In this document: positions 4,780-32,052 of the stretch, one piece after another
Layout: each line of letters begins with the position of its first letter
Numbering within the stretch: position 1 is the stretch's first letter
UHGV virus genome: UHGV-0205140
Source of the DNA: a virus
Strand: one strand, 5' to 3'
Length of the DNA: 41,602 bases
Made by a program: the position numbers and the translations under genes
Notes under the pieces: generated by a model
What the model saw: the letters and a program-made list of their open reading frames with translations, nothing else
Told to the model about the DNA's origin: nothing
The model's database searches: none

Positions 4780-4892
4780 ATACAAGATATTGATTGGAGG
4801 TAGCCCCGGCTATCTCTTTTCTTTTACCAAAAACGACGAATCGAGACGGCTCTGGCTGCCTCTTTTTGATTGAAGAAAGCGAGGTGAGCCTG

Positions 4893-5414
4893 ATGGCAGC
4901 AAAAAAGACGGTCGGAAGGCCGCCTAAATACGAAAGCAAAGAACAGATTGAAGGCTTAATTGAGCAGTATTTTATGGATTGTGAGGGAGAAATATTGAAA
5001 GATGCAGAAGGGAATCCGATTTTGAATAAATGGGGGAACCCAGTTATCGTCAATCAGAGGCCTCCAACCATCACAGGGTTGGCACTTGCTCTGGGGTTCG
5101 CAAGTAGGCAGGCACTGCTTAACTATCAGGGCAAAAAAGAATTTAATGACACGATAACGCGTGCGAAGTCTCGTATTGAGCAATACGCAGAAGAACGGCT
5201 GTTTGACCGCGACGGATCCAACGGGGCAAAGTTCAGTCTGAGCAATAACTTCTCTGGATGGGGTGAGAAGCCTCCATCTGATCTTGATGAGGAAGAGCAG
5301 AGAGCCCGCATCGCTCAGATCAAAGCCCAGACGGATAAGCTGAAAGGCACTGACAACGGTGCAGAGCTGAGCCGCCTGGATGAGGTTCTGAGTGAGATCA
5401 AAGGGGTTGTGTGA
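4893..5414 (+). CDS. terS: terminase small subunit
   Basis: MAAKKTVGRPPKYESKEQIEGLIEQYF is a typical TerS N-terminal HTH. GAGGTGA RBS. It lies immediately upstream of TerL. Confidence 0.7.
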   Translation: MAAKKTVGRPPKYESKEQIEGLIEQYFMDCEGEILKDAEGNPILNKWGNPVIVNQRPPTITGLALALGFASRQALLNYQGKKEFNDTITRAKSRIEQYAEERLFDRDGSNGAKFSLSNNFSGWGEKPPSDLDEEEQRARIAQIKAQTDKLKGTDNGAELSRLDEVLSEIKGVV

Positions 5415-5415
5415 T

Positions 5416-6672
5416 ATGCCATTTTCCGATAAGCAGCAGGAGTTTTTCCAGAACGCGAACCACCGCTGGAATATCAAGGTAGGCGCTACACGTTCTGGAA
5501 AGACTTATATGGACTATTATGTAATTCCCAAGAGAATCCGTGCCAGAGCCGGAAAAGAGGGCCTGGTGGCAATTCTGGGCGTGTCTAAGGGCACGATCCA
5601 GCGTAACATCATCGAACCATTACAACGAATCTGGGGTACAAATCTTGTGGGAGATATCAATTCCCAGAACATTTGCCCGATGTTTGGCGAGGATGTTTAC
5701 TGCCTCGGGGCCGAAAAGGTCAGTCAGGTATCTAAGATCCGGGGATCTTCACTGAAATACTGCTATGGTGATGAGGTGGTGGATTGGAACCAGGACGTAT
5801 TTAATATGCTTAAATCCCGTCTTGATAAGCCATATTCCTGTTTTGATGGGGCGTGCAACCCGGATGCCCCGCAGCACTGGTTTAAGCAGTTTCTGGATTC
5901 AGACGCTGATATTTACTGCCAGAAGTATGAACTTTTTGACAATCCATTTGTAAGCCCTGTATTTGTGGATGAGCTTTGTAAGGAGTACAAAGGGACGGTC
6001 CTATATGACCGGTACATCCGTGGGCTGTGGGTTGCGGCAGAAGGATCTGTGTATAAGCTGATGTGCGACGCAGTATCCAGTGGAGGGGTTAATCCCTTTG
6101 CAATCTATGAAAAGCCTAAGAGTATCATGCAGATCAATATCGGCGTCGACTTTGGCGGTTCCGGCTCCGGCCACGCATTTGTGGCTACAGCATATTCCAG
6201 GGCTTACCACAGTATTACCGCCCTTGCCAGTGAGCGCCATATGAGCAAAAACGGAAGCATTGACCCGGATAAGCTGGGGAATCTGTTCGTAGACTTCTGT
6301 CTGAAGATCATTAACCTATACGGCTTCATTACTGCTGTTTACTGCGACAATGCAGAGCAGACGCTGATTGCAGGACTGAGGACGGCTGTCAGGAAGTCGG
6401 GGTTTGGATGGATCCGGATCGAGAACGCACTTAAGACAACAATCAATGACCGAATACGTTTTACGCAGCGGATGCTCAGCCAGCACCGCTTTTCTTACAC
6501 GAAAGATCAGTGCCAGACGCTGGAGGATGCCCTTACTACTGCACTGTGGGATGAGGAAAAGAGTCTTGTGGAAGATGTGAGGCTGGATGATGGTACCAGT
6601 GATATAGATACACTGGACGCGTTTGAGTACACATTTGAGCGGGATATCAGCCGGTTTATCCGGTACGAATAG
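5416..6672 (+). CDS. terL: terminase large subunit (PBSX/XtmB-like)
   Basis: Walker A GATRSGKT near the N-terminus. About 420 aa. The start overlaps the TerS stop. Confidence 0.8.
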   Translation: MPFSDKQQEFFQNANHRWNIKVGATRSGKTYMDYYVIPKRIRARAGKEGLVAILGVSKGTIQRNIIEPLQRIWGTNLVGDINSQNICPMFGEDVYCLGAEKVSQVSKIRGSSLKYCYGDEVVDWNQDVFNMLKSRLDKPYSCFDGACNPDAPQHWFKQFLDSDADIYCQKYELFDNPFVSPVFVDELCKEYKGTVLYDRYIRGLWVAAEGSVYKLMCDAVSSGGVNPFAIYEKPKSIMQINIGVDFGGSGSGHAFVATAYSRAYHSITALASERHMSKNGSIDPDKLGNLFVDFCLKIINLYGFITAVYCDNAEQTLIAGLRTAVRKSGFGWIRIENALKTTINDRIRFTQRMLSQHRFSYTKDQCQTLEDALTTALWDEEKSLVEDVRLDDGTSDIDTLDAFEYTFERDISRFIRYE

Positions 6673-6683
6673 AGGTGATGAGG

Positions 6684-8063
6684 ATGAAATTTTCAAAAAT
6701 GCTGACAGCGATCACAGAGATATTGAATCAGAATTCCGACACGCAGATAGATGTATGCCTGACTTCTCAGATGGCCTCTGCGATTGAGTTATGGACAGCC
6801 ATGTACGAGAATCATGCTCCCTGGGTAGACCGGGAAACAGTCAAGAGCGCACAGATACCGGCAGCTATCGCCTCAGAGATTGCAAGATTGGTGACATTGG
6901 AGATGCAGTCGGAGATAACCGGCGGCGCGGCGGCTGAATATCTGAACCAGGAGTACCAGAAAAAGGTGCTGGCTGATCTGCGGCGCTATGTGGAATACGG
7001 GTGCGCAAAGGGCGGTCTGATTCTTAAACCGTATATGACGAAAACAGGGCTTGCAATCCAGTATGTGCAGGCAGACAGCTTTTTCCCGCTGTCGTTCGAT
7101 GATTCGGGCCGGATCATGCAATGCGTGTTTACGGAACAGTTCCGAAAAGGAAAGAAGATATATACCCGGCTGGAAGTACATACGCTGCAGAATGATGTAA
7201 TCCACATCACAAACAGGGCTTTCGTGGCTACCAACGATTACAGCCTGGGAACAGAGCTCGAGGTCAGCAGCGTGGACCGCTGGTCTGAATTGGTGCCGGA
7301 GATATCACTTGCGGGATCGGACAGGCTCCTGTTTGGGTATTTCAAGGTACCTATGGCAAATGCGGAGGACACAGACAGCCCGTTGGGGGTATCGGTATAT
7401 TCCAGAGCAGACGAGCTGGTAGCGGAAGCGGACCGGAGGTACTCAAATATCTGCTGGGAGTATGAGGGCACGCAGCTTGCGGTTCATATTGCTGAGAGTA
7501 TGCTGAAATACAACAAGGACAGGGATAAGTTTGAATATCCGGGAGGAAAAAAACGATTATATCGGGAGTTGAACTACGAGATAGGAGCCACAGACAAGCC
7601 GCTTATTGATACATTTTCTCCCGGAATTCGAGATACCGCCCTGTTTAACGGATTTAATGCCCAGCTACGGCTGATTGAGTTTGCCTGCAATCTGGCATAT
7701 GGCACCCTGTCAGATCCCCAGAATGTGGATAAGACGGCCACAGAGATCAAGGTCAGCAAGCAGAGGTCTTACACGTTTGTTTCCGACACGCAGATGGCTT
7801 TACAGCGAGCTCTGGAAGATCTGGTATACGCTATGAACTTCTGGGCGGTGCTGTATGGCCTGATCCCTCCGGGGAATGATTATCAGGTATCCTTTGTTTG
7901 GGATGACAGTATCATCGTGGATGCGGAAACGGAGCGGCAGACAGACCGGCAGGATGTGACTATGGGCGTAATGTCATTGGCTGAGTACCGCAGTAAGTGG
8001 TACGGGGAGACGCTGGAAGAGGCGGCAAAAAATCTGCCGGAACCAGCATTGACAGAGGAGTGA
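6684..8063 (+). CDS. portal protein
   Basis: About 460 aa ORF directly after TerL. AGAGGTGA RBS. Size and position fit SPP1 gp6-like portals. Confidence 0.7.
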   Translation: MKFSKMLTAITEILNQNSDTQIDVCLTSQMASAIELWTAMYENHAPWVDRETVKSAQIPAAIASEIARLVTLEMQSEITGGAAAEYLNQEYQKKVLADLRRYVEYGCAKGGLILKPYMTKTGLAIQYVQADSFFPLSFDDSGRIMQCVFTEQFRKGKKIYTRLEVHTLQNDVIHITNRAFVATNDYSLGTELEVSSVDRWSELVPEISLAGSDRLLFGYFKVPMANAEDTDSPLGVSVYSRADELVAEADRRYSNICWEYEGTQLAVHIAESMLKYNKDRDKFEYPGGKKRLYRELNYEIGATDKPLIDTFSPGIRDTALFNGFNAQLRLIEFACNLAYGTLSDPQNVDKTATEIKVSKQRSYTFVSDTQMALQRALEDLVYAMNFWAVLYGLIPPGNDYQVSFVWDDSIIVDAETERQTDRQDVTMGVMSLAEYRSKWYGETLEEAAKNLPEPALTEE

Positions 8064-8138: not shown

Positions 8139-9932
8139 ATGACACCTGAGGAACTGGAGAAGCTGCCAAAGCCATTAGAGCGTACCATGACGGCATTGGA
8201 ATTATCGGTTATGTCTGAGATCATACAGCGGATCCGGGAAGTGGCTCAGATCACCCCAGTCGCTGATTGGCTGTTGATCCGTATGGATGCTATTGGTAAA
8301 AGCAGGAAAGAAATTAAGCGCCTGCTCCGGGATGGCGTTGGATCGGCGGGGCTTGAGATCGACCAGATCTATGATCAGGCAATCCAGTCCGATTACATCC
8401 GCAACAAGGAGATATACGAGGCTGCCGGACAGGACTATGTGCCTTATGGGGATAATCAGTGGCTCCAGCAGGTAGCGGAGGCTGTCAGGGAACAGACCAA
8501 GGACACCCTAAGGCCCATGGAAAATATCACAAAAACCACAGGTTTTAATGTGCATATGGGAGGCAGGAAAGTGTTTACCCCGCTTTCTGAGTATCTGGAG
8601 CGCAGTTTGGACAAGGCTATGCTGGGAATTACCACAGGCACAAGGACATACAGTCAGGCGGTAGGAGAGGTTATTGACGAGATGACAGCCAGCGGCATAC
8701 GAACGGTTGATTATGCATCCGGCAAATCTGATCGGATCGAAGTAGCCGCCCGCCGTGCAGTTATGACAGGAATCGCCCAGATGACGGACAAAGTAAACGA
8801 AAAGAACGCAAAAGAACTGGGGACAGATTACTGGGAAGTGGACTGGCACATGGGGGCCAGAAACACAGGAACCGGGTATCTGAATCATCAGAGCTGGCAG
8901 GGAAGGGTTTATTCTTCTGAGGAGATGAGAACCGTCTGTGGACTGGGTGAAATGCTGGGATTTGCCGGGATTAACTGCTACCATATCCGTTTTCCCTTCC
9001 TTCCCGGTATCAGCAAACGGAGGTATACAGATGAGTGGCTGGAAGAACAGAACCGGAAAGAAAATGAAAAAAAGCTGTTTAAAGGGCGCGAATACGATAC
9101 ATATGGAGCCTTGCAGTATCAGAGACGCTTGGAGCGTACAATCCGAAAGCAGAAACAGGATATTAAGCTTTTAGTGGCGGCTAAGGCTGACCCGGATGAT
9201 ATTACAGCGGCTAAGGGCAGGCTGAGGCTGACGGATAAGACCTATGTGGAGTTTTCAAAGGAAATGGGGCTTAGGCAGCAGCGGGAACGGCTGAAAATTG
9301 GAAAAGATGTATCTGAGAGGGAAAAATCTTCTATTCAGATTGAAACAGAAAGTGCGAATATTGAAAATCTTCGTAAGGGTAGCAATATTGTTGATCTGAA
9401 AAAGATTGAATCCGATTTGTTCAGAAGTAAATTTACGCAACTTACTGGAAATTCAGCAGTAAATGACGCTTTGCGGAAATATGCAAGAGCCATGCTTGTG
9501 CATAGAAACGGAAGCGATGGAGAAGATCTGTATATTATTAGTGCCAAAAGCGGAAAAAGACTTTTTTCAAAAACAAATGGATCGAATAATTTGGGAGTAG
9601 AATTATCCAAAGAAGAAATTGAGGAAATCCAGAATTATGCCAGAACAGAGGGAATTATAGGGATGCATAACCATCCAACAAATGTATATCCTACAGGAGG
9701 GGATTTTGTTTCCGCTGGAGCAAGAGGATATGATTTTGGAGTGATAGTTACCCATGATGGAAGAGTGTTTCAGTATAAAGCTGGAGACAAACCATTCCGC
9801 AGTGAATATTTTAATAAGACTGTTGACAAATATGTTTCGAGGCCATACACTTATGACATAGAAGAGGCGCAGTTGACAGCATTGAAAGAATTTGAGAAGG
9901 AGTTTGGAATCGAATGGAGGGAATTGAAATAA
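8139..9932 (+). CDS. minor head / head-morphogenesis protein (MuF / SPP1 gp7 family) fused to a low-GC C-terminal cargo domain with a RadC/JAB-like HNHP motif
   Basis: The N-terminal roughly 390 aa look MuF-like and sit after the portal. Base composition drops sharply from about position 9300. The C-terminal region contains IIGMHNHPTNVYPTGGD (compare RadC ILAHNHPSGDPTPSxxD). Confidence 0.6.
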   Translation: MTPEELEKLPKPLERTMTALELSVMSEIIQRIREVAQITPVADWLLIRMDAIGKSRKEIKRLLRDGVGSAGLEIDQIYDQAIQSDYIRNKEIYEAAGQDYVPYGDNQWLQQVAEAVREQTKDTLRPMENITKTTGFNVHMGGRKVFTPLSEYLERSLDKAMLGITTGTRTYSQAVGEVIDEMTASGIRTVDYASGKSDRIEVAARRAVMTGIAQMTDKVNEKNAKELGTDYWEVDWHMGARNTGTGYLNHQSWQGRVYSSEEMRTVCGLGEMLGFAGINCYHIRFPFLPGISKRRYTDEWLEEQNRKENEKKLFKGREYDTYGALQYQRRLERTIRKQKQDIKLLVAAKADPDDITAAKGRLRLTDKTYVEFSKEMGLRQQRERLKIGKDVSEREKSSIQIETESANIENLRKGSNIVDLKKIESDLFRSKFTQLTGNSAVNDALRKYARAMLVHRNGSDGEDLYIISAKSGKRLFSKTNGSNNLGVELSKEEIEEIQNYARTEGIIGMHNHPTNVYPTGGDFVSAGARGYDFGVIVTHDGRVFQYKAGDKPFRSEYFNKTVDKYVSRPYTYDIEEAQLTALKEFEKEFGIEWRELK

Positions 9933-9961
9933 GAGGTAAGGATGTCATAGTCCATGAGGAA

Positions 9962-10042
9962 ATGACGGAAGAGGAAAGAAATGCAGAATTAGAACGATTA
10001 AAAAAAGAAAGCGAAGCTTTAACCGAATGGGAAGAAGAGTAG
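9962..10042 (+). CDS. 26-aa acidic peptide (speculative)
   Basis: Short ORF MTEEERNAELERLKKESEALTEWEEE between the MuF cargo domain and the terminator, with no strong RBS. Confidence 0.1.
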   Translation: MTEEERNAELERLKKESEALTEWEEE

Positions 10043-10044
10043 AT

Positions 10045-10076
10045 ACCACCAGTCAGTAATGGCCGGTGGTTTTTTG
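10045..10076 (+). terminator. rho-independent terminator
   Basis: Stem ACCACCaG / CCGGTGGT followed by TTTTTT. Confidence 0.55.
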
Positions 10077-10091
10077 TATGCATTTTTAGGT

Positions 10092-10107
10092 TGTGCGACG
10101 TCGCAAC
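10092..10107. promoter_or_regulatory. 16-bp element TGTGCGACGTCGCAAC with a 12-bp perfect palindrome core, copy 1
   Basis: Identical 16-mer at 27623-27638. It lies 15 bp upstream of the fibre-gene ATG, between the terminator and the RBS. Confidence 0.45.
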
Positions 10108-10122
10108 AGGGAGGTGAAACCG

Positions 10123-12303
10123 ATGATTGCAGCAGTATTTACAGAGAATAACGATTACGCCCAGGTTTACGGCGTGTGGCAGTGGGATTACGGGCAGGAG
10201 CTGCGGATCCAGGGCCTAAATCTTCCGGCGGCGGTTGAGATTCACTTTGCACTACAGGAAACCGGCGGCGAAGCTGTGACCCGTGTAGGTGTAACGCAGG
10301 ACGGGATAACAACCGTTCCGATCCCGGACAGTATGTTAGAAGGAGCCGGAAACTCTAAGGACTATCAGATCTATGCGTGGGTGTACCTGGCAGATCAGGT
10401 ATCTGGTGAAACGATCAAGCGGATCAAGATGCAGGTCAGGGCAAGACCCATGCCAGAGGCTTTTGAGGCTCCAGAAGATGGGGAGATCTTCCGTCAGGCC
10501 ATCGAGGCCGTCAATGAGGCCGCCAAGAGGGCAGAGGACGCGGGAAAGGAGGCAGTATCCTCCGCGGGTGAGGCCAGGGAGGCGGCCACACAGGCGGGGA
10601 AACATCTGGAAACCGTCCGGGGGTTGGCAGATCAGGCAGAGATTAACGCTGATACCGTGGCACAGGACAAACAGGCAGTAGCCGGTATGCTCTCTCAGGT
10701 GCAGCAGGCGGCCTCAGAAGCGGCCCTGTCGGCAGAGGCAGCCAAGTTATCAGAGACAGCCGCAGGACAGGCCCAAACGGGCGCAGAGGCGGCAGAGGAT
10801 GGGGCAAGGCAGTATGCCGCAGACACGGAGGCAGACCGGCAGGAGGTTGCAAGCGCCAGGCAGGCAGTACAGCAGATGCGTGAGACCGTGGCAGCGGACA
10901 AATCAGAAGTTGAGCAGACAGCAGCAGGTTTTGTAGATACAGCCCGGCAGGCAGTATCAGATGTTAATGCTGCGGGCAAGGCCCAGGTAGATGCTATTAA
11001 GACAGCCGGGCAGGGTGCGTCAAATGCGGTAGAGACAGCCAAAACAACAGCAGTACAGGCAGTCACTGCGGAAGGCGATAAGCAAGTACAGCGAGTGCAG
11101 GAAGCGGCGGCAGGTGTTGAGGCCGATCGGGAGCAGATCAACCAGAATAAGGCCGACATAGCTGGTTTGGCAGAAGGCATAACTGATCTGGCACCGGGGA
11201 TCAAGATTACCACCACCGGCACAGACATCACCATCAAGGACGCCGCCGAGGGCCGGGCGTTTAAGGGGCTGCGGGTGTTTGGGCGGACGGATCAGAAGGG
11301 AACGCCAAGCCCGGAAACTCCGCAGGAGATGGAGACGGCGGGGGAGAGCGGTAGTATTGAGGTATTGGTAGCTGGCAGTAATCTGTTAAAACCCAACAAT
11401 TACAATGTTTTTTGCGAATCTCCGTTGGAAGCAAACACGGTAGTTACTCTTATGACGAATGGAAAAGCATCAAATGGTGGCAATATTAAATTTATCGGAA
11501 CCGATGATTCAAATGTCTGGTTTAGTATTGATAAAGGACAAACCAGGGTTTGCAAATCTATAGGAAGTAAGCCTGTTAAAGGTTTTTATGATTTACTCAC
11601 ACAGACGTCTGGACTAGAATATATGCTTGCCGTTGGTGATGTAAAAACCTATGAATCCTACCGCACCTCCCAGTCCCTTACGCTATCCACCCCAAACGGC
11701 CTTCCAGGGATCCCAGTATCATCCGGCGGCAACTATACAGATGCCAAGGGCCAGCAGTGGGTATGCGACGAGATCGATCTTGGACGCGGGAAGTATGTGC
11801 AGCGGGTAGCAGCCGAAAGCATAAGCGGCGGCTGGAAGTTGGTGGATACTTCAGACGTACCAGGAAGATTTATCCAAAATAACCGTGTGTCCAATGCATA
11901 TGCAAATGGAGGGAAAACCGCACTATGTACTATTGCAGCGTGGACAAATTATGGTGTAAGTAAAGGGGATAATAGATATGTGTTCGTGGTAAGTGGTACT
12001 GCGTTTTATATATCTCCACCATCGGATGTATCCATGACAGCGGACGAACTTAATGCAAAGCTTAATGCATTAAAAGATCCTGTGGTTATACTGGGGCAGC
12101 TTGCCGCCCCCATCGAACGCGGCCTCACCCCGGAAGAGATCGCCGCCTACAAGGCCCTTCGGACGTACAGCCCGACTACGGTTGTGAGCAATGACGCGGG
12201 GTGCCATATGGAGACAACCTATATCGCTGATACCAAGACCTATATCGACAACAAATTTGCGGCCCTTAATAAGACCATATTAGATGCAGTAGGAGGTACA
12301 TAA
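10123..12303 (+). CDS. fibre-like structural protein: BppU-N-like N-terminal domain, about 250-aa Ala/Gln/Glu-rich coiled coil, beta-rich C-terminal receptor-binding-like domain
   Basis: ATG 10123 with a GGGAGGTG RBS (the track ORF starts at an upstream GTG). Architecture and composition as described. Located between MuF and scaffold. Confidence 0.55.
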   Translation: MIAAVFTENNDYAQVYGVWQWDYGQELRIQGLNLPAAVEIHFALQETGGEAVTRVGVTQDGITTVPIPDSMLEGAGNSKDYQIYAWVYLADQVSGETIKRIKMQVRARPMPEAFEAPEDGEIFRQAIEAVNEAAKRAEDAGKEAVSSAGEAREAATQAGKHLETVRGLADQAEINADTVAQDKQAVAGMLSQVQQAASEAALSAEAAKLSETAAGQAQTGAEAAEDGARQYAADTEADRQEVASARQAVQQMRETVAADKSEVEQTAAGFVDTARQAVSDVNAAGKAQVDAIKTAGQGASNAVETAKTTAVQAVTAEGDKQVQRVQEAAAGVEADREQINQNKADIAGLAEGITDLAPGIKITTTGTDITIKDAAEGRAFKGLRVFGRTDQKGTPSPETPQEMETAGESGSIEVLVAGSNLLKPNNYNVFCESPLEANTVVTLMTNGKASNGGNIKFIGTDDSNVWFSIDKGQTRVCKSIGSKPVKGFYDLLTQTSGLEYMLAVGDVKTYESYRTSQSLTLSTPNGLPGIPVSSGGNYTDAKGQQWVCDEIDLGRGKYVQRVAAESISGGWKLVDTSDVPGRFIQNNRVSNAYANGGKTALCTIAAWTNYGVSKGDNRYVFVVSGTAFYISPPSDVSMTADELNAKLNALKDPVVILGQLAAPIERGLTPEEIAAYKALRTYSPTTVVSNDAGCHMETTYIADTKTYIDNKFAALNKTILDAVGGT

Positions 12304-13314: not shown

Positions 13315-13848
13315 ATGAAAACAGAAGATTTACAGGCAAAAGGTCTGACACAGGAGCAGATCGATTATGTTATGGCCGAGTATGGCAGAGAGCTGAATGG
13401 AGTTAAGCAGGACCGCGACAATTATAAGGCGCAGCTTGCAGCAGCTCAGGCTACACTTAAAAGTTTTGAGGGCGTAAATGTGCAGGAACTTCAGGGAAAG
13501 ATTACCCAGCTGACTTCTGATCTGGCGGTAAAAGAAACTGAGTACCAGAAACAGATTGCAGACAGGGATTTCAATGACCTTCTGAAGACAACAGCAGAGG
13601 GCTTTAAGCCGCGTGATCTGAAGGCTGTCATGCCGTTCCTGGATGTCGAAAAGCTGAAGGCCAGCAAGAACCAGGAGGCAGATATTAAGGCAGCTCTGGA
13701 TGTTGTAAAGAAGGATAATGCTTATCTGTTTCAGGATATCAATATCCCCAGGGTGGTTTCCACTACGCCTGGTCCGGGCGGTGCGGCAGCAGAGGACACA
13801 AAAGCCAGAGCGAATGCAGCATTAAGAAACATTTTAGGAAGAGAATAA
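13315..13848 (+). CDS. scaffolding protein (GP20-like)
   Basis: Helical, coiled-coil-like 177-aa protein immediately upstream of the major capsid gene. Confidence 0.55.
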   Translation: MKTEDLQAKGLTQEQIDYVMAEYGRELNGVKQDRDNYKAQLAAAQATLKSFEGVNVQELQGKITQLTSDLAVKETEYQKQIADRDFNDLLKTTAEGFKPRDLKAVMPFLDVEKLKASKNQEADIKAALDVVKKDNAYLFQDINIPRVVSTTPGPGGAAAEDTKARANAALRNILGRE

Positions 13849-13860
13849 GGAGGAAACAAT

Positions 13861-15054
13861 ATGGCAGTACATATTACAAGCAGGGCCGATGCAGAGGCCA
13901 TTATCCGTGAACAGGTGGTATCCACTATTTTTCAGGATGCGCCCAAACAGTCTGTATTCATGTCTTTGGCACGCAAGCTGCCGAACATGACAAGCAATCA
14001 GACCCGTATCCGTGTACTGGATTTCCTGCCGACTGCTTACTGGGTAAACGGTGACACTGGTATGAAGCAGACCAGCAAGCAGGCATGGGATAACGTGTAT
14101 ATCAATGCGGCAGAACTGGCAGTCATCGTTCCGATTCCGGAGGCAGTCCTGGACGACGCAGAGTTTGACATTTTTGGAGAAATCACTCCAAGAGTGAATG
14201 AGGCAATCGGCCAGAGAGTAGACAGTGCCGCTATCTTCGGTGTGAACCGTCCGGCAGAATGGCAGAACGATATCGTTACACTGGCCCGTCAGGCGGGCAA
14301 TAACGTAGCACCTGGAGGAAGTCCTGATTATTATGACCTGATTCTTGGAGAAGGCGGCGTGATTTCCAAGGTAGAGGAAGATGGTTATATGTCCACAGGT
14401 GCTCTGGCTTCTATGGGAATGAGGGCAAAACTGAGAGGGGTTAAATCTACTGACGGAACCCCTATCTTTAAATCCGATATGCAGGGCTCTACAAACTATG
14501 CACTGGATGGTGCGCCGATGTACTTCCCTCAGAACGGGGCATTTGACAATACGATTGCGCAGCTGATCATTGGCGACTTTAAGCAGGCTGTATATGCAAT
14601 CCGTCAGGATATCACTGTAAAGATTCTGGATCAGGGTATTATTCAGGATCCTGCTACAAAGGAGATCGTCTACAACCTGGCCCAGCAGGACATGGTAGCG
14701 CTGCGAATCGTGTTCCGTATGGGCTGGGCGCTGCCGAACCCTGCAACCCGTATGGATGAGGACCGCGTGGGCTGCCCGTTTGCATATCTGGAGCCTGCAA
14801 CTGCAGTAACCACCCAGAAGGTTACTTTTACAGTCAAGGATAACAACAGCGAGCCTAAGGCCGTTGAAGGCGCTATTGTGGATGTGAATGGTTCCCGACT
14901 GAAAACCAACGCCGCCGGCGTGGTAGAGTTCTATTTGCGTCCAGGTACTTATCCGGCAAAGATCAAAAAGAATGGGTATGGTACGATCACGGAGACCGTA
15001 ACTGTAGACAAGGCTGCGGTACCTAAGGCGATCACTCTGATCCCCAATGCGTAG
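13861..15054 (+). CDS. major capsid protein (HK97 fold) with a C-terminal CarboxypepD_reg/Ig-like beta-sandwich extension
   Basis: About 400 aa following the scaffold. The C-terminal VTFTVKDNNSEPKAVEGAIVDVNG...GVVEFYLRPGTYPAKIKKNGY resembles carboxypeptidase-regulatory-like domains. Confidence 0.65.
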   Translation: MAVHITSRADAEAIIREQVVSTIFQDAPKQSVFMSLARKLPNMTSNQTRIRVLDFLPTAYWVNGDTGMKQTSKQAWDNVYINAAELAVIVPIPEAVLDDAEFDIFGEITPRVNEAIGQRVDSAAIFGVNRPAEWQNDIVTLARQAGNNVAPGGSPDYYDLILGEGGVISKVEEDGYMSTGALASMGMRAKLRGVKSTDGTPIFKSDMQGSTNYALDGAPMYFPQNGAFDNTIAQLIIGDFKQAVYAIRQDITVKILDQGIIQDPATKEIVYNLAQQDMVALRIVFRMGWALPNPATRMDEDRVGCPFAYLEPATAVTTQKVTFTVKDNNSEPKAVEGAIVDVNGSRLKTNAAGVVEFYLRPGTYPAKIKKNGYGTITETVTVDKAAVPKAITLIPNA

Positions 15055-27950: not shown

Positions 27951-28049
27951 TACTGGCATTATAGCATATGCAGATTTTAAATGCAAGATACCTGAAAATG
28001 ATTTTTGTCCGGTTTTGTACCGGGCTTTTTTATTTGGAGGCAAAGACAT

Positions 28050-28916
28050 ATGGAAAACGCAGTAAAGAAACTCATTGATCAGGCCGCCCATTGGGACGGC
28101 TATCTGGAAAAGAAAAGCAACGCCCAGCTGGATGATTTTACGGCCAATGCCGGCAGCGGCAATTTCACCTGCTTTGCCAGGGACTATAAGACACACACCG
28201 GTCAGAATCTGCAGGCCCAGCCCTGGTGTGCCATGTTCGTATCAGAGGTATTTGTGCAGGCATTTGGTCTGGAGGTTGCTAAGAAACTTCTGGGCGGCAG
28301 CCTGTACCATTATTGCCCCACAGGGGTCAAACAGTTTAAAAAGGCAGGCCGGTGGGCCGCGGTGCCGGAGCCTGGGGCAGTGATCTTCTTTACCAACGGC
28401 CAGAGAGCCTATCATACAGGGATCGTTACAGAGGTGACGGCAACGCGGATCAAGACCATTGAGGGTAATACGTCCGGTGCATCCGGCGTGATTGAAAACG
28501 GCGGCGGGGTGTGCCGGAAGGCTTACAGCCGGTCTTATGGGAAAATTCTTGGCTACGGGCTGCCGGACTGGTCGATTGTCCAGGCCAAGGAAAAGAAAGC
28601 CGGCTGGCAGCAGGAAGATGGCGGCTGGCGGTACTATCTGGGTAATACAGGGGAACCAGTAAAAAATGACTGGTATCAGGATGATGGAAAGTGGTACTGG
28701 TTTGACGGAGCAGGAATGATGGTGTATGATACCTGGTATAAGTATCAGGATCACTGGTATTATCTGGGCGCTGACGGGGCTATGGTCAAAGGTCAGCAGA
28801 CCATAGGCGGCAAGTGGTACATCATGGACGATCGGGGGCGGATGATTATGGAGCCGGTTGTCCTTACTCCGGGTCAGGACGGGGCGCTGCGGTGGCGGGG
28901 GCTGGCGGAAGAGTAA
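28050..28916 (+). CDS. endolysin: N-terminal CHAP domain plus C-terminal cell-wall-binding (choline-binding-like) repeats
   Basis: CHAP Cys motif QPWCAMFVS and His motif PEPGAVIFFTNGQRAYHTGIV. GW..DGGWYY-type repeats at the C-terminus. GGAGG 9 nt upstream of ATG 28050. Confidence 0.75.
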   Translation: MENAVKKLIDQAAHWDGYLEKKSNAQLDDFTANAGSGNFTCFARDYKTHTGQNLQAQPWCAMFVSEVFVQAFGLEVAKKLLGGSLYHYCPTGVKQFKKAGRWAAVPEPGAVIFFTNGQRAYHTGIVTEVTATRIKTIEGNTSGASGVIENGGGVCRKAYSRSYGKILGYGLPDWSIVQAKEKKAGWQQEDGGWRYYLGNTGEPVKNDWYQDDGKWYWFDGAGMMVYDTWYKYQDHWYYLGADGAMVKGQQTIGGKWYIMDDRGRMIMEPVVLTPGQDGALRWRGLAEE

Positions 28917-29190: not shown

Positions 29191-30400
29191 CCAAAACCTT
29201 ATACCAGCCATCCGGATTGCGTTCTTTAAGGAGTTTTATGAGCTCTTCCGGCGATAGATTTTCTTTGTCACTTGGAGAGGATTTCTCTGGATTGACAATG
29301 CTTTCAAAGTAGTTATCTATGGTATTATCAACACGCACACGCTCATCGGGGAATGTCTGCGTATAGACCTTTTTCATTACCTGATCGGTTTTCCATCCAC
29401 CACGTTCCTGGGCGTACTTGTCTGGGATCCGAAGAAGGGCCATAACAGAAGCGTTGAGATGCCGGAGATCATGGAAGGTAATAGGGGATAGCCCATTATC
29501 ATGCTGCAGCTTAATCCAACGATGATACAGTGCTCGGCCGCTCATCGGTACAAGCACATCACCATCTACCTGATCAATCAGATTCTGTATGTATGGCGGG
29601 ATCTGTAAGCGCCGGTTGCGGGTTGGGTTCTTAGCTAACTCTTTGCGTACCGGTTTATTGTTAATGTCCACGATTACCTCATGGATTGTGATATAGTTTC
29701 CTGAGATGGATTTGGATTTTGTCAAGCCACGGACCTCAGACATGGAGAATGAAAGCCAGGTAGCTAATAACACCGGTAATTCAATATCAGTTCCCTTGAT
29801 GAGGTTTAGGACGGTTTTTGCCGGTGGAAGTTCCACCAATCTGGGAGTAACAGTAGGAAGTTCTATTTGTTCAAAGTCAATCTTATTTACACCGTATTTA
29901 TGCAGCACAGGGCGGATTAGCCCCCATTCATTACGTACGCGCTTGGCAGATATGGGTTTTCCCTTCTTGGCAGGGCTGTTGGTCGGTCTGCGGGCTTCTG
30001 CACTCAGAGCTTCCTGAAGGATCGTTATATCTATGTCTTTGATAGGGGTATCCATCAGATCCGGAAATGCATTCTTCTGGATACAGCGGTAGTCCTGGAG
30101 TGTAGTGGGAGACCGGTTCAGGTTCTCCCTGGATTCAATATATTTGTCAATTGCCTGGGATAAGGTGAGTTTTCCATAATCCTGCCGTTTCCGGATCCTG
30201 TCAGGTGTCTTGGTTGCCTGAAACTGTGCGGCAGCCAGCTCGGCCCGTTTTCGGCCTGCTGGGCTGGGGTCGTCATCGGTAAAGGATTCATAGATCCGTT
30301 TATTTTTCCACTTTTTAGTCTTTTCATCGTATATTCGTTCCGTGTGACTGTAGGCCAGACAGCGCCATGAGCCGGATGGGAGTTTCTTTGCGGTTGCCAT
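29141..30400 (-). CDS. int: tyrosine-type site-specific integrase
   Basis: Catalytic R (SEVRGL), HDLRH box, C-terminal catalytic Y (KKVYTQT). AAGGAGG RBS. Adjacent to attP. Confidence 0.85.
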   Translation of the reverse strand: MATAKKLPSGSWRCLAYSHTERIYDEKTKKWKNKRIYESFTDDDPSPAGRKRAELAAAQFQATKTPDRIRKRQDYGKLTLSQAIDKYIESRENLNRSPTTLQDYRCIQKNAFPDLMDTPIKDIDITILQEALSAEARRPTNSPAKKGKPISAKRVRNEWGLIRPVLHKYGVNKIDFEQIELPTVTPRLVELPPAKTVLNLIKGTDIELPVLLATWLSFSMSEVRGLTKSKSISGNYITIHEVIVDINNKPVRKELAKNPTRNRRLQIPPYIQNLIDQVDGDVLVPMSGRALYHRWIKLQHDNGLSPITFHDLRHLNASVMALLRIPDKYAQERGGWKTDQVMKKVYTQTFPDERVRVDNTIDNYFESIVNPEKSSPSDKENLSPEELIKLLKERNPDGWYKVLENAMQHEMQHDTKKAR

Positions 30401-30434
30401 ATATCATTCCTCCTTAAAAATGGGTAAAAAAATA

Positions 30435-30448
30435 CACCTGTACAGGTG
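30435..30448. promoter_or_regulatory. 14-bp perfect palindrome CACCTGTACAGGTG upstream of int; a second CCTGTACAG half at 30503-30511
   Basis: Perfect dyad in the int leader region. Confidence 0.4.
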
Positions 30449-30556
30449 CACGGAGGTATGGTACAATATGGGTGTTGAGATTATATTGTATCGGCCTCCG
30501 GGCCTGTACAGAAATTTATTTAAAGCCGTTCGGTGCTGGTAACACCGGGCGGTTTT

Positions 30557-31093
30557 TTAGTACAAAGATCTAATTTGATTTAAATATGTATTTATTTCGT
30601 CAAATGCGCTCTGAGTTATCACAAATGCATTCCAATAAGCGACACAAAGAATAGCAATATGGATTCCTAAAATTCCTACAGTAAAGAGTATCCTTTCTGC
30701 CAGAGTTCTTTTACCAGTGCACCAATACAGGATTAACCCAACGGGCCACAAAAAGAAAAGCGATATTATTACAATAAAAATATTTTTAGAGTAAAAAGGG
30801 TCACTTGATAAGTCATGTTTTTCAATGGGGAGGTCAGGGTAATGCTCTGATATAAAATCAACAGCACGTTGTATGGCAGCATTGGATTTTTGAGGAAAGA
30901 AAAAGCGCTCAAAATGTCCATAGCTATCGTGAAAATCCATATACCCGCCTTCCGTCATAGTACGGAAACAATACTCTATATGGGAGATAGTTTCATATGG
31001 CATTTTTTTTAATTTATACCCCCACTGAAAATCCTGTATATTGATCTCTGTCTTTCCTATAAACAGTTCTTGGGATTTACCTTTAATACTCAT
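30557..31093 (-). CDS. membrane-anchored lysogeny-module protein (candidate superinfection-exclusion / abortive-infection moron)
   Basis: GAGGGAG RBS. A roughly 105-aa soluble N-terminal domain plus two C-terminal TM helices. AT-rich. Sits between int and the repressor module. Confidence 0.5.
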   Translation of the reverse strand: MSIKGKSQELFIGKTEINIQDFQWGYKLKKMPYETISHIEYCFRTMTEGGYMDFHDSYGHFERFFFPQKSNAAIQRAVDFISEHYPDLPIEKHDLSSDPFYSKNIFIVIISLFFLWPVGLILYWCTGKRTLAERILFTVGILGIHIAILCVAYWNAFVITQSAFDEINTYLNQIRSLY

Positions 31094-31119
31094 TTGACTC
31101 CCTCGTTTCATTATGAATG

Positions 31120-31560
31120 CTATTTTAATCTTAATTCAATTAATTCTTTTGGGTATCCAGTACAATTACAAAATTGTTCCTTGGTATAACCCTTATATTC
31201 TACCAGCATTTCATCATCAATTAAAAGATAAGCTGCAAATAAATTTGCTCGTCGCTCTAACTTTGAATTAAGCAACAGAGTTTTGTTACGAATAAAATAG
31301 CAGTTTGCTTTTCGATCTAATAATGCATGACCTAATTCATGAGCCATTACAAGTTTTAGATCGAAGTTATTTAGGCGATTACTCAAGAAGATATATCTAT
31401 GATTTTTGAGAAACATATAACATCCTTCATGCGTGCAGTTTCCGATTTGATATAGTATTCCCAAACGGTCAGCGATTTCAAAAGGATCTGATGTGTTATA
31501 TAATCGCTTACAATAAGCAACTAATCGTTTTATGCGTTCTATTTCCCCCAAGAGTATCAC
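31120..31560 (-). CDS. ImmA/IrrE-family zinc metallopeptidase (anti-repressor protease)
   Basis: HELGHALLD HExxH motif. Adjacent to and co-directional with the XRE repressor. Confidence 0.7.
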   Translation of the reverse strand: MILLGEIERIKRLVAYCKRLYNTSDPFEIADRLGILYQIGNCTHEGCYMFLKNHRYIFLSNRLNNFDLKLVMAHELGHALLDRKANCYFIRNKTLLLNSKLERRANLFAAYLLIDDEMLVEYKGYTKEQFCNCTGYPKELIELRLK

Positions 31561-31995
31561 CTACTTTTTATATTTTTTGGGAGTATATTTCTCCTTATTT
31601 ATAATTTTAAGACGTCGAAGTGCAATTTCTAACTCATCTCTAAATAATTCGGCTGCTTCTGGATCAAGCTCTTCTCCATTATAACTTGCCGGGCCAGATT
31701 CACCAGCAGAAAGTTTTTCCATGATACTATCAAGATCCTTGGCAATATCACGTTCATCTCTGGAATTTAGTTCTGATGATTTTTCTTTTTTTTGTTCGAT
31801 CGTGTCCTTTCCGGTTGTCAAGTAGTCGAGGGAAACGCCAAAGTAGTCAGCAATTTTTTTCATATTATCTGTTTTGGGAGTGCTACGACCACGTTTCCAG
31901 TCGCTTAATGTTGATTGAGTAATTCCGGTCTCTTTAGACACCTTATAAGAGGTTATCCCATGCTTTTGTAGTAGTTGTTCAAAAATCTCATACAT
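31561..31995 (-). CDS. XRE-family HTH repressor (ImmR/CI-like)
   Basis: N-terminal HTH (GITQSTLSDWKRGRSTPK). Divergent from the cro-like gene. AAAGGTGA RBS. The track ORF starts 6 codons further upstream. Confidence 0.7.
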   Translation of the reverse strand: MYEIFEQLLQKHGITSYKVSKETGITQSTLSDWKRGRSTPKTDNMKKIADYFGVSLDYLTTGKDTIEQKKEKSSELNSRDERDIAKDLDSIMEKLSAGESGPASYNGEELDPEAAELFRDELEIALRRLKIINKEKYTPKKYKK

Positions 31996-32052
31996 AAATT
32001 GTTCACCTTTCATAAAACCGTAGGCAATACTAAGAAAAACCGAAAAAATCTA

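What the first reader, a model, noticed from the sequence alone, without database searches (positions are those of the whole stretch)
9300..10042. MuF head-morphogenesis protein carries a low-GC C-terminal cargo domain with a RadC/JAB-like HNHP motif
The 597-aa MuF/gp7-like protein has a roughly 200-aa C-terminal extension whose base composition is markedly AT-richer than the rest of the gene, which suggests acquisition by recombination. It contains EEI...IIGMHNHPTNVYPTGGD, closely resembling the RadC-type JAB/MPN metal-binding core (E ... ILAHNHPSGDPTPSxxD). The spacer is one residue shorter, and T/G replaces the usual S. MuF C-terminal fusions are the signature of MuF polymorphic toxin or effector proteins, which are packaged in the capsid and injected with the DNA. 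A JAB-type isopeptidase delivered this way could be an anti-defence effector, for example against ubiquitin-like conjugation defences, or a toxin. A 26-aa acidic ORF and a terminator follow.
Basis: partly seen in the sequence, partly recalled or inferred. Interest (0 to 1): 0.75.

Follow-up and report, generated by a model that had tools for sequence, protein, structure and literature searches.

The report
Phage capsid protein with swappable enzyme
The minor capsid (MuF) protein of a gut-bacterium prophage ends in an exchangeable, unannotated JAB/RadC-like metal-enzyme domain that always travels with its own tiny partner gene, which fits the known pattern of phage-packaged toxins or effectors, but the enzyme's target is still unknown.

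Summary
ORF 8139-9932 (597 aa) is a MuF2-type minor capsid protein (PF06152, residues 1-372) next to the portal gene. From about nt 9300 its GC falls from 0.50 to 0.37 (GC3 0.56 to 0.29).

Residues about 415-597 give a confident AlphaFold model. Its closest solved relatives are JAB/MPN proteins (PfJAMM1, RadC 2qlc, BRCC36). E462, H510, H512 and D522 are invariant or nearly so in 138 family representatives.

The low-GC stretch is a recombination cassette. Sister phages with MuF cores 58-98% identical carry no extension or unrelated ones after a shared QRERL junction. These include HExxH, CdiA_C toxin, an unknown domain and two other JAB-like subfamilies. DNA similarity stops at 9286-9301 and resumes at 10042-10065.

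The cassette includes a conserved 42-aa acidic ORF (9914-10042, not 26 aa) that overlaps the stop codon. Each allele class except CdiA_C has its own small ORF; short MuFs have none.

Best reading: a MuF polymorphic toxin/effector with a new JAB/RadC-like cargo and a cognate small immunity-like partner. Substrate, toxicity and any anti-defence role are untested. It is a new member of a known kind, of moderate interest.

The parts
6675..8063 (+). Portal protein gene (context). MuF genes characteristically follow it.
   Evidence: phrog_533 portal, E=2.9e-132; PF05133 SPP1_portal.
8139..9305 (+). MuF2 core of the minor capsid protein (residues 1-389). It ends at the conserved junction '...MGLRQQRERLKIGK'.
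   Evidence: PF06152 over residues 1-372, E=4.9e-109. Short MuF alleles in sister phages end right after QRERLRIPK. GC 0.502.
9286..9301 (.). Left recombination breakpoint of the cargo cassette.
   Evidence: BLASTN similarity to phages carrying other C-terminal alleles (L107, L115, L119, L121, L133, L134) ends at window 9286-9301.
9306..9380 (+). Linker (residues about 390-414) between the MuF core and the cargo domain.
   Evidence: pLDDT is below 50 for residues 388-406 of the protein in the model. Sequence is not conserved.
9381..9932 (+). JAB/RadC-like metalloenzyme cargo domain (residues 415-597 plus stop codon).
9522..9524 (+). Codon of E462, the candidate catalytic glutamate.
   Evidence: 138/138 conserved. 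Lies immediately before the first core beta-strand.
9666..9704 (+). HNHPTNVYPTGGD (H510, H512, T519, D522): the metal-binding motif, with x6 spacing.
   Evidence: H510 and H512 138/138, D522 137/138, T/S519 131/138. Total motif length is 13 in 121 of 121 motif-bearing sequences. HxH sits at a strand end and T..D at a helix start.
9914..10042 (+). Cognate small acidic partner gene (42 aa; 16 acidic and 6 basic residues). It overlaps the MuF stop codon by 19 nt.
   Evidence: Found in nearly all of the 56 unique JAB loci with a 15-21 nt overlap. D10 and W39 are invariant and E20/E21 invariant or nearly so. Three of three look-ups starting from the small protein found a MuF-JAB gene upstream. It is absent after short MuF alleles. 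The model on its own is a single helix, residues 19-35.
10045..10076 (+). Hairpin plus U-run: a terminator-like element and the conserved right flank of the cassette.
   Evidence: dG -14.7 kcal/mol, z -2.3. DNA similarity to other-allele phages resumes at 10042-10065. The element is present, with at most 5 substitutions, in 17 of 80 sister loci.

Best explanation
The segment 9300-10042 is a two-gene cargo cassette recombined onto the 3' end of the minor capsid gene of a temperate siphophage. The prophage is one of Enterocloster, family Lachnospiraceae.

The MuF core (residues 1-389) is the vehicle. By analogy with SPP1 gp7 and Mu gpF, it is built into the capsid at the portal, so whatever is fused to it is packaged and can leave the capsid with the DNA (inferred, not shown here).

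The cargo (residues 415-597) is a catalytically intact zinc-type hydrolase of the JAB/MPN superfamily. It is closest to the minimal prokaryotic JAMM and RadC clade, with a shortened HxH-x6-[ST]-xx-D site.

The overlapping 42-aa acidic ORF is its cognate partner. It is most likely an inhibitor or immunity protein that binds the enzyme in the cell producing the phage (inferred from position, allele specificity and co-inheritance).

The system therefore works like a MuF polymorphic toxin/effector module. Different phages with nearly the same capsid protein carry different enzyme-plus-partner cassettes, exchanged by recombination between the conserved QRERL junction and the conserved terminator hairpin.

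The target is unknown. I lean towards a nucleic-acid or nucleotide-linked substrate, as proposed for RadC and Tox-JAB domains, rather than a ubiquitin-like conjugate, but with low confidence.
For: Shown:
- MuF2 domain next to the portal gene.
- Confident model with a JAB/MPN fold.
- Homology to RadC at profile level: 90% probability, E=1.6e-6. Distant family members give sub-threshold RadC and Prok-JAB Pfam hits.
- E462, H510 and H512 are 138/138, and D522 is 137/138, in 138 representatives at the 50% identity level. They sit on the canonical secondary-structure elements.
- The domain is always C-terminal (135 of 137).
- Of 80 loci with cores 58-98% identical, 16 have no extension. The rest fall into at least 5 unrelated extension classes, including CdiA_C (PF18451, E=3.5e-19) and an HExxH class at 91% core identity.
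- Two further classes are JAB-like (hhalign 94.7% and 93.5%).
- DNA breakpoints at 9286-9301 and 10042-10065 coincide with the GC drop.
- The same JAB-plus-small-ORF pair (60-74% identity) is fused to MuF cores only 17-19% identical, of both PF04233 and PF06152 types.
- Every extension class except CdiA_C has its own overlapping small ORF, and short MuFs have none.
- Identity of the small ORFs tracks identity of the JAB domains (Spearman 0.60).

Precedent from the literature:
- MuF toxins with immunity genes immediately downstream (PMC5576092; Apk2/IapK in PMC12226406).
- JAB toxin domains in other polymorphic toxins, predicted to be nucleases (PMC3482391).
- RadC in polyvalent proteins of phages and plasmids (PMC5512222).
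Against: - No activity, toxicity, packaging or partner binding was tested.
- The partner is much smaller (40-69 aa) than typical immunity proteins and matches no known immunity family.
- The CdiA_C allele in sister phages has no overlapping small ORF, so the rule is not absolute.
- The family is very common (hundreds of 50% clusters). Its catalytic site is strictly conserved across many phage lineages. This could equally mean a function useful to the phage at every infection rather than a toxin used in competition.
Confidence: 0.6

Rival explanations
1. Anti-defence deconjugase. The packaged JAB domain is an isopeptidase like Cap3 or BilC. Injected with the DNA, it strips ubiquitin-like conjugates made by host defences (type II CBASS Cap2 priming, or Bil tagging of virion proteins).
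Against: No PADLOC model matches. The only sequence-level affinities are to RadC and Prok-JAB, not to the deubiquitinase clades. The allele-specific small partner, and a genuine CdiA_C toxin in the same slot, fit a toxin/immunity logic better. The tail-binding groove could not be examined because no coordinates were available.
Confidence: 0.15
2. Phage-beneficial RadC-like DNA- or nucleotide-processing factor. The domain acts on the incoming phage DNA or on host nucleic acid at entry (for example anti-restriction or end processing), as RadC-like genes in plasmid leading regions and polyvalent proteins are thought to do. It is not toxic, and the small ORF is a chaperone or assembly partner.
For: RadC is the nearest family by sequence. 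After MuF proteins, BFVD hits include phage RadC proteins. The family is very widespread with an invariant active site. RadC domains occur in polyvalent proteins of invading elements (PMC5512222).
Against: Closely related phages do without any extension (16 of 80) or carry unrelated ones, so the function is dispensable and replaceable. RadC's own activity is unproven. An allele-specific partner is not explained.
Confidence: 0.2
3. Structural or maturation role. The JAB-like domain is a capsid-assembly protease or an ordinary structural part of this MuF protein.
For: This head module has a scaffold protein but no recognised prohead protease. PHROG phrog_581 'minor head protein' aligns across residues 1-560.
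Against: Sister phages with 76-81% identical cores and the same head genes end right after QRERLRIPK. The domain moves between unrelated MuF backbones together with its small ORF.
Confidence: 0.05

Closest known systems
MuF polymorphic toxins of temperate phages (Zhang et al. 2012, PMC3482391; Jamet et al. 2017, PMC5576092; for example Apk2 with IapK/Aph1, PMC12226406)
   Same: N-terminal MuF domain (here MuF2, PF06152) encoded just after the portal gene. The C-terminal domain varies between close relatives. A small ORF lies immediately downstream. Known toxin domains (CdiA_C) occupy the same slot in relatives.
   Different: The cargo is an unannotated JAB/RadC-like domain that is not among the MuF-linked toxin domains listed in those papers; it would fall into Jamet's 'C-terminal extension, unknown domain' class. 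The partner is only 40-69 aa. Toxicity is untested.
RadC family JAB domains (PF04002; PDB 2qlc)
   Same: HNHP...[ST]xxD core, an upstream Glu, JAB fold, and occurrence on mobile elements. hhalign gives 90% probability and 2qlc is 20% identical in the structural alignment.
   Different: There is no Pfam hit for the window protein. The loop between HxH and S/T is one residue shorter. The usual RadC N-terminal region is absent. Extra N- and C-terminal helices make a domain of about 180 aa, and it is fused to a capsid protein.
[quoted passage not shown] 2012)
   Same: Divergent JAB domains used as C-terminal cargo with dedicated immunity proteins. They are predicted to act on nucleic acids rather than on ubiquitin-like proteins.
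   Different: Those are attached to RHS, T6SS or T7SS trafficking modules and pair with Imm65 or Imm-NTF2. No Pfam model of them matched here.
Cap3 (CBASS) and BilC (Bil) JAB deconjugases; archaeal JAMM1
   Different: Those work beside E1/E2/Ubl genes. Here there are none, there is no PADLOC match, and the context is a virion protein.
SPP1 gp7 / Mu gpF minor head proteins
   Same: Homologous vehicle domain and the same gene position after the portal gene.
   Different: Those are single-domain proteins with no enzymatic C-terminal cargo of this type.

Membership tests
JAB/MPN (JAMM) metalloenzyme superfamily | Characteristic alpha/beta JAB fold | tested here: met
JAB/MPN (JAMM) metalloenzyme superfamily | E ... 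HxH-x7-S-xx-D catalytic/metal motif | tested here: met
   E462, H510, H512, T519 and D522 are present, and invariant or nearly so in 138 relatives. Deviations: x6 instead of x7 throughout the family, and T or S at the serine position.
JAB/MPN (JAMM) metalloenzyme superfamily | Motif residues on the canonical elements (Glu before a core strand, HxH at a strand end, S..D at a helix start) | tested here: met
   Mapping of the residues onto the DSSP string of the model.
JAB/MPN (JAMM) metalloenzyme superfamily | Zinc binding and hydrolytic activity | not testable with these tools
   Needs purified protein.
RadC (Pfam PF04002) | Score above the Pfam gathering threshold (22.1 bits) | tested here: not met
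   No hit for the window protein even at E<=10. Distant family members reach 14.6-18.5 bits.
RadC (Pfam PF04002) | Profile-level homology to RadC | tested here: inconclusive
   hhalign of A2 against 24 RadC proteins gives 90% probability and E=1.6e-6, but only 42 columns around the motif align with confidence.
RadC (Pfam PF04002) | HNHPSG-x3-PS-xx-D spacing | tested here: not met
   One residue shorter in all family members.
MuF polymorphic toxins | N-terminal MuF-superfamily domain encoded just downstream of the portal gene | tested here: met
   PF06152, E=4.9e-109. Portal gene at 6675-8063.
MuF polymorphic toxins | C-terminal region polymorphic among proteins with closely related N-termini | tested here: met
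   80 loci with 58-98% core identity: 16 without an extension and at least 5 unrelated extension classes. Breakpoints mapped.
MuF polymorphic toxins | Recognised toxin domains in the variable position | tested here: met
   CdiA_C (PF18451), E=3.5e-19, in the L175 class. The window's own cargo matches no curated toxin model.
MuF polymorphic toxins | Small ORF immediately downstream that is specific to the toxin domain (immunity candidate) | tested here: met
   42-aa ORF overlapping the stop codon, conserved together with the JAB domain. Other classes have other small ORFs; short MuFs have none. An immunity function itself was not tested.
MuF polymorphic toxins | Toxicity of the C-terminal domain and neutralisation by the partner | not testable with these tools
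   Needs expression experiments.
[quoted passage not shown] | Match to the family models | tested here: not met
   The Pfam scan at E<=10 returned nothing for residues 388-597. That these families have Pfam models is from memory and from PMC3482391.
Defence-system JAB deconjugases (Cap3, BilC) | Match to defence-system protein models, or neighbouring E1/E2/Ubl genes | tested here: not met

The most novel reading that the evidence does not exclude
The cargo is not a competition toxin. It is a virion-delivered enzyme that acts at the instant of DNA entry, either deconjugating ubiquitin-like defence tags or processing nucleic acid, and a dedicated acidic peptide of about 45 aa keeps it silent until ejection. 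With hundreds of sequence clusters, three JAB-like subfamilies alternating in one slot and cultured phages that carry it, this would be a large unrecognised class of packaged counter-defence enzymes. It would also give a tractable route to the long-unknown biochemistry of RadC-like JAB domains.
Probability: 0.25. Interest if true: 0.75.

Novelty: new member of a known kind. Interest (0 to 1): 0.5.

Why it matters
MuF proteins with 'unknown' C-terminal extensions were left unexplained in the main survey, where 66% of extended MuFs had no recognised toxin domain. This work assigns a large share of those in Firmicutes gut phages to a distinct JAB/RadC-like enzyme family with an intact active site. 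It maps the cassette boundaries to within about 20 bases. It also identifies an unannotated 40-69 aa partner protein family.

RadC-like JAB domains are common on mobile elements, yet their activity has never been established. A packaged version with a probable specific inhibitor, present in cultured phages (MissF, AC844P1-3), is a practical system for finding out.

Tried and rejected
- **Sequence-only searches of the C-terminal domain.** Pfam, NCBIfam, PADLOC, PHROGs and PDB sequences gave nothing significant. Even the broad family profile reached RadC 2qlc only at E=0.083.
- **Nucleotide search of deposited phages.** No match.
- **'Standalone' JAB genes.** Apparent free-standing versions (P0006, P0007, P0012) looked like free cassettes. 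In L003-L005 they are products of a scaffold gap, a frameshift and an in-frame stop within a MuF fusion, so I dropped that idea.
- **The 'THNHPSS' extension class (L164).** It looked like a fourth JAB variant, but hhalign gave only 7.8% probability, so I do not count it.
Rejected in favour of E462.
- **The 26-aa reading of the small ORF.** Rejected in favour of 42 aa.
- **Terminator.** The simple scanner missed the bulged hairpin; folding shows it.
- **Literature.** Searches found no paper describing a MuF-JAB fusion or its small partner.

Full report
**What is in the sequence.** The window is a temperate siphophage or prophage. Its genes run in this order:
- small terminase, 4794-5414
- large terminase, 5392-6672
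- SPP1-type portal, 6675-8063
- the 597-aa ORF, 8139-9932
- a 42-aa ORF, 9914-10042
- a 736-aa ORF of unknown function
- scaffold, 13315-13848
- HK97-fold major capsid protein, 13861-15054
- tail genes, a CHAP/choline-binding endolysin and an integrase

Its head module is about 98% identical at DNA level to a prophage of Enterocloster alcoholdehydrogenati C5-48.

Residues 1-372 of the 597-aa protein match PF06152 (Phage_min_cap2) at E=4.9e-109. Jamet et al. call this domain MuF2 and place it in the MuF superfamily (PMC5576092).

GC falls from 0.50 to 0.35-0.39 between about 9300 and 10050. The stretch 9306-10042 has GC 0.373 against 0.502 for the core. GC3 is 0.29 against 0.56, so amino-acid composition alone does not explain the drop. 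The stretch lies in the 4th percentile of all windows of the same length, although this phage is a GC mosaic overall.

**The C-terminal domain is a JAB/MPN-type enzyme.** No curated library recognises residues 388-597. An AlphaFold model built on 13 relatives is confident (pLDDT 87, pTM 0.82), with the first 19 residues (388-406) disordered.
- Foldseek ranks JAMM1 and RadC first.
- Among viral models, the best matches are C-termini of other 'minor capsid proteins', followed by phage RadC proteins.
- A profile of 32 diverse family members aligns to a profile of 24 RadC proteins with 90% probability (E=1.6e-6). The aligned region is the helix-strand-HNHP...S..D core, with a one-residue gap.
- Distant family members in Streptococcus phage MissF and Anaerostipes phage AC844P2 give sub-threshold Pfam hits to RadC and Prok-JAB.

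**The active site is conserved.** An exhaustive profile search found 1063 representatives of 50%-identity clusters at E<=0.001, of which 701 are at E<=1e-10. The query profile included some linker columns, so the weakest hits are less certain. In the 137 hits that contain a full domain, the domain is C-terminal in 135.

Conservation across 138 aligned domains:

| Residue | Conserved in |
|---|---|
| E462 | 138 |
| H510 | 138 |
| H512 | 138 |
| D522 | 137 |
| P518 | 137 |
| Y546 | 137 |
| H539 | 133 |
| Y531 | 133 |
| T or S at 519 | 131 |

The HxH-x6-[ST]-xx-D spacing is constant. E462 sits just before a core strand, HxH at a strand end, and T519/D522 at the start of the next helix. This is the canonical JAMM arrangement.

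**The low-GC stretch is an exchangeable cassette.** I fetched 80 viral loci whose MuF core is 58-98% identical to the window's. All share the junction QRERL[KR][IV] and then diverge:
- 16 stop within 3-28 residues.
- 17 carry the window-type domain.
- 11 carry two other JAB-like subfamilies, with the motifs VHNHADNRGFSYSD and VHNHNTDSSFSEAD. hhalign to the window family gives 94.7% and 93.5%.
- 11 carry an HExxH-motif domain, including loci at 90-91% core identity.
- 16 carry an unknown domain of about 135 aa, or truncations of it.
- 6 carry a 'THNHPSS' domain that I could not link to JAB.
- 3 carry a CdiA_C toxin domain (PF18451, E=3.5e-19).

At DNA level, similarity to phages with other alleles ends at window 9286-9301. 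It resumes at 10042-10065, on a hairpin-plus-U6 element (dG -14.7 kcal/mol) shared by phages with different cassettes.

Conversely, window-type domains of 60-74% identity are fused to MuF cores only 17-19% identical, of both PF04233 and PF06152 types. In all 56 unique loci the JAB part has lower GC than its own MuF core.

**The small ORF belongs to the cassette.** The ORF after the stop codon is 42 aa, not 26. Homologues of 40-69 aa start 15-21 nt before the MuF stop in nearly every locus. They share the pattern ..D.I.H..(M)TPEEREKEL..LKEES.KLT[DE]W(P)E, with D10 and W39 invariant and E20/E21 invariant or nearly so.

A search starting from the small protein found only small unannotated proteins. 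In three of three contexts examined, the overlapping upstream gene was a MuF protein with this JAB-like domain.

Short MuF alleles have no such ORF. The HExxH, 135-aa, JAB-variant and THNHPSS classes each have their own unrelated small ORF in the same overlapping position. The CdiA_C class has none of at least 25 aa. None of these small ORFs matches a Pfam family. Modelled alone, the 42-aa protein forms one helix (residues 19-35) with an unstructured N-terminal half. That would suit a peptide that folds on its partner, but this is an inference.

**Interpretation.** The anatomy matches MuF polymorphic toxins or effectors in four respects: a capsid-incorporated vehicle, an exchangeable enzymatic C-terminus, a cognate small ORF downstream, and known toxins in the same slot in relatives. 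In that family the immunity gene lies immediately downstream (PMC5576092; Apk2/IapK, PMC12226406).

JAB domains have been described as cargo of other polymorphic toxins (Tox-JAB-1/2), and RadC domains in polyvalent proteins of phages and plasmids. In both cases the authors predicted action on nucleic acids rather than on ubiquitin-like proteins (PMC3482391; PMC5512222). I found no description of a MuF-JAB fusion or of its partner.

*Shown here:* the fold, conservation of the active site, the polymorphism, the breakpoints, and co-inheritance with the small ORF.

*Inferred:* packaging and ejection (by analogy with SPP1 gp7, from established knowledge), the inhibitor role of the small protein, and any toxicity.

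*Open:* the substrate, and whether the enzyme serves competition, counter-defence or DNA entry.

**Verdict.** Its functional suggestion (isopeptidase or anti-defence) remains one of several possibilities. This is a new, unannotated cargo-and-partner family within a known kind of system.

Noticed in passing
window 10093-12303: A 736-aa ORF (phrog_16164, no Pfam hit, GC 0.57-0.64, Ala/Gln-rich) lies between the MuF cassette and the scaffold gene. DNA similarity to sister phages L107 and L108 is lost from about 10110 to about 12830, so this is a second variable slot in the head module.
   Followed up: partly
L019 4087-6537: An 816-aa MuF2 protein carries two cargo modules in tandem: an HExxH ('THELGHH') domain followed by the JAB-like domain. 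This is a small 'polyvalent' arrangement.
   Followed up: partly
L004 4122-4646; L005 4048-4554: Two independent assemblies have a frame disruption (a frameshift in an A-run, and an in-frame TGA) in the linker just upstream of the JAB-like domain. This produces apparent standalone 153-aa JAB genes. Whether it is a sequencing artefact or real decoupling was not resolved.
   Followed up: partly
L175, L181 (downstream of the MuF gene): The CdiA_C-type allele has no overlapping small ORF of at least 25 aa before the scaffold gene, unlike every other extension class. Where its immunity gene lies, if one exists, is unknown.
   Followed up: no
L188/L189 2021-3171: A 331-aa MuF1-JAB gene with its small ORF sits directly beside a host ychF-like GTPase gene. 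There is no portal or terminase gene upstream, but head genes follow downstream. The contig is seen in 11 samples. It may be a truncated prophage that retains the cassette.
   Followed up: no
L146, about 35 nt after the MuF stop codon: A truncated 54-aa extension is followed by a 139-aa ORF that resembles an IS200/IS605 TnpA. The resemblance is from memory and was not tested. It may be an insertion that disrupted the cargo.
   Followed up: no
all 56 unique JAB loci (L001-L103): The JAB-like part always has lower GC and GC3 than the MuF core of the same gene, whatever the phage's own GC. Spread from a low-GC source explains the direction of the difference but not why it persists.
   Followed up: partly
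window 13861-15054; 28005-28916; 30381-32000: The major capsid protein has a C-terminal PEGA/CarboxypepD_reg-like domain. The endolysin combines CHAP with choline-binding repeats. The lowest-GC region of the window (0.34) lies beside the integrase gene.
   Followed up: no
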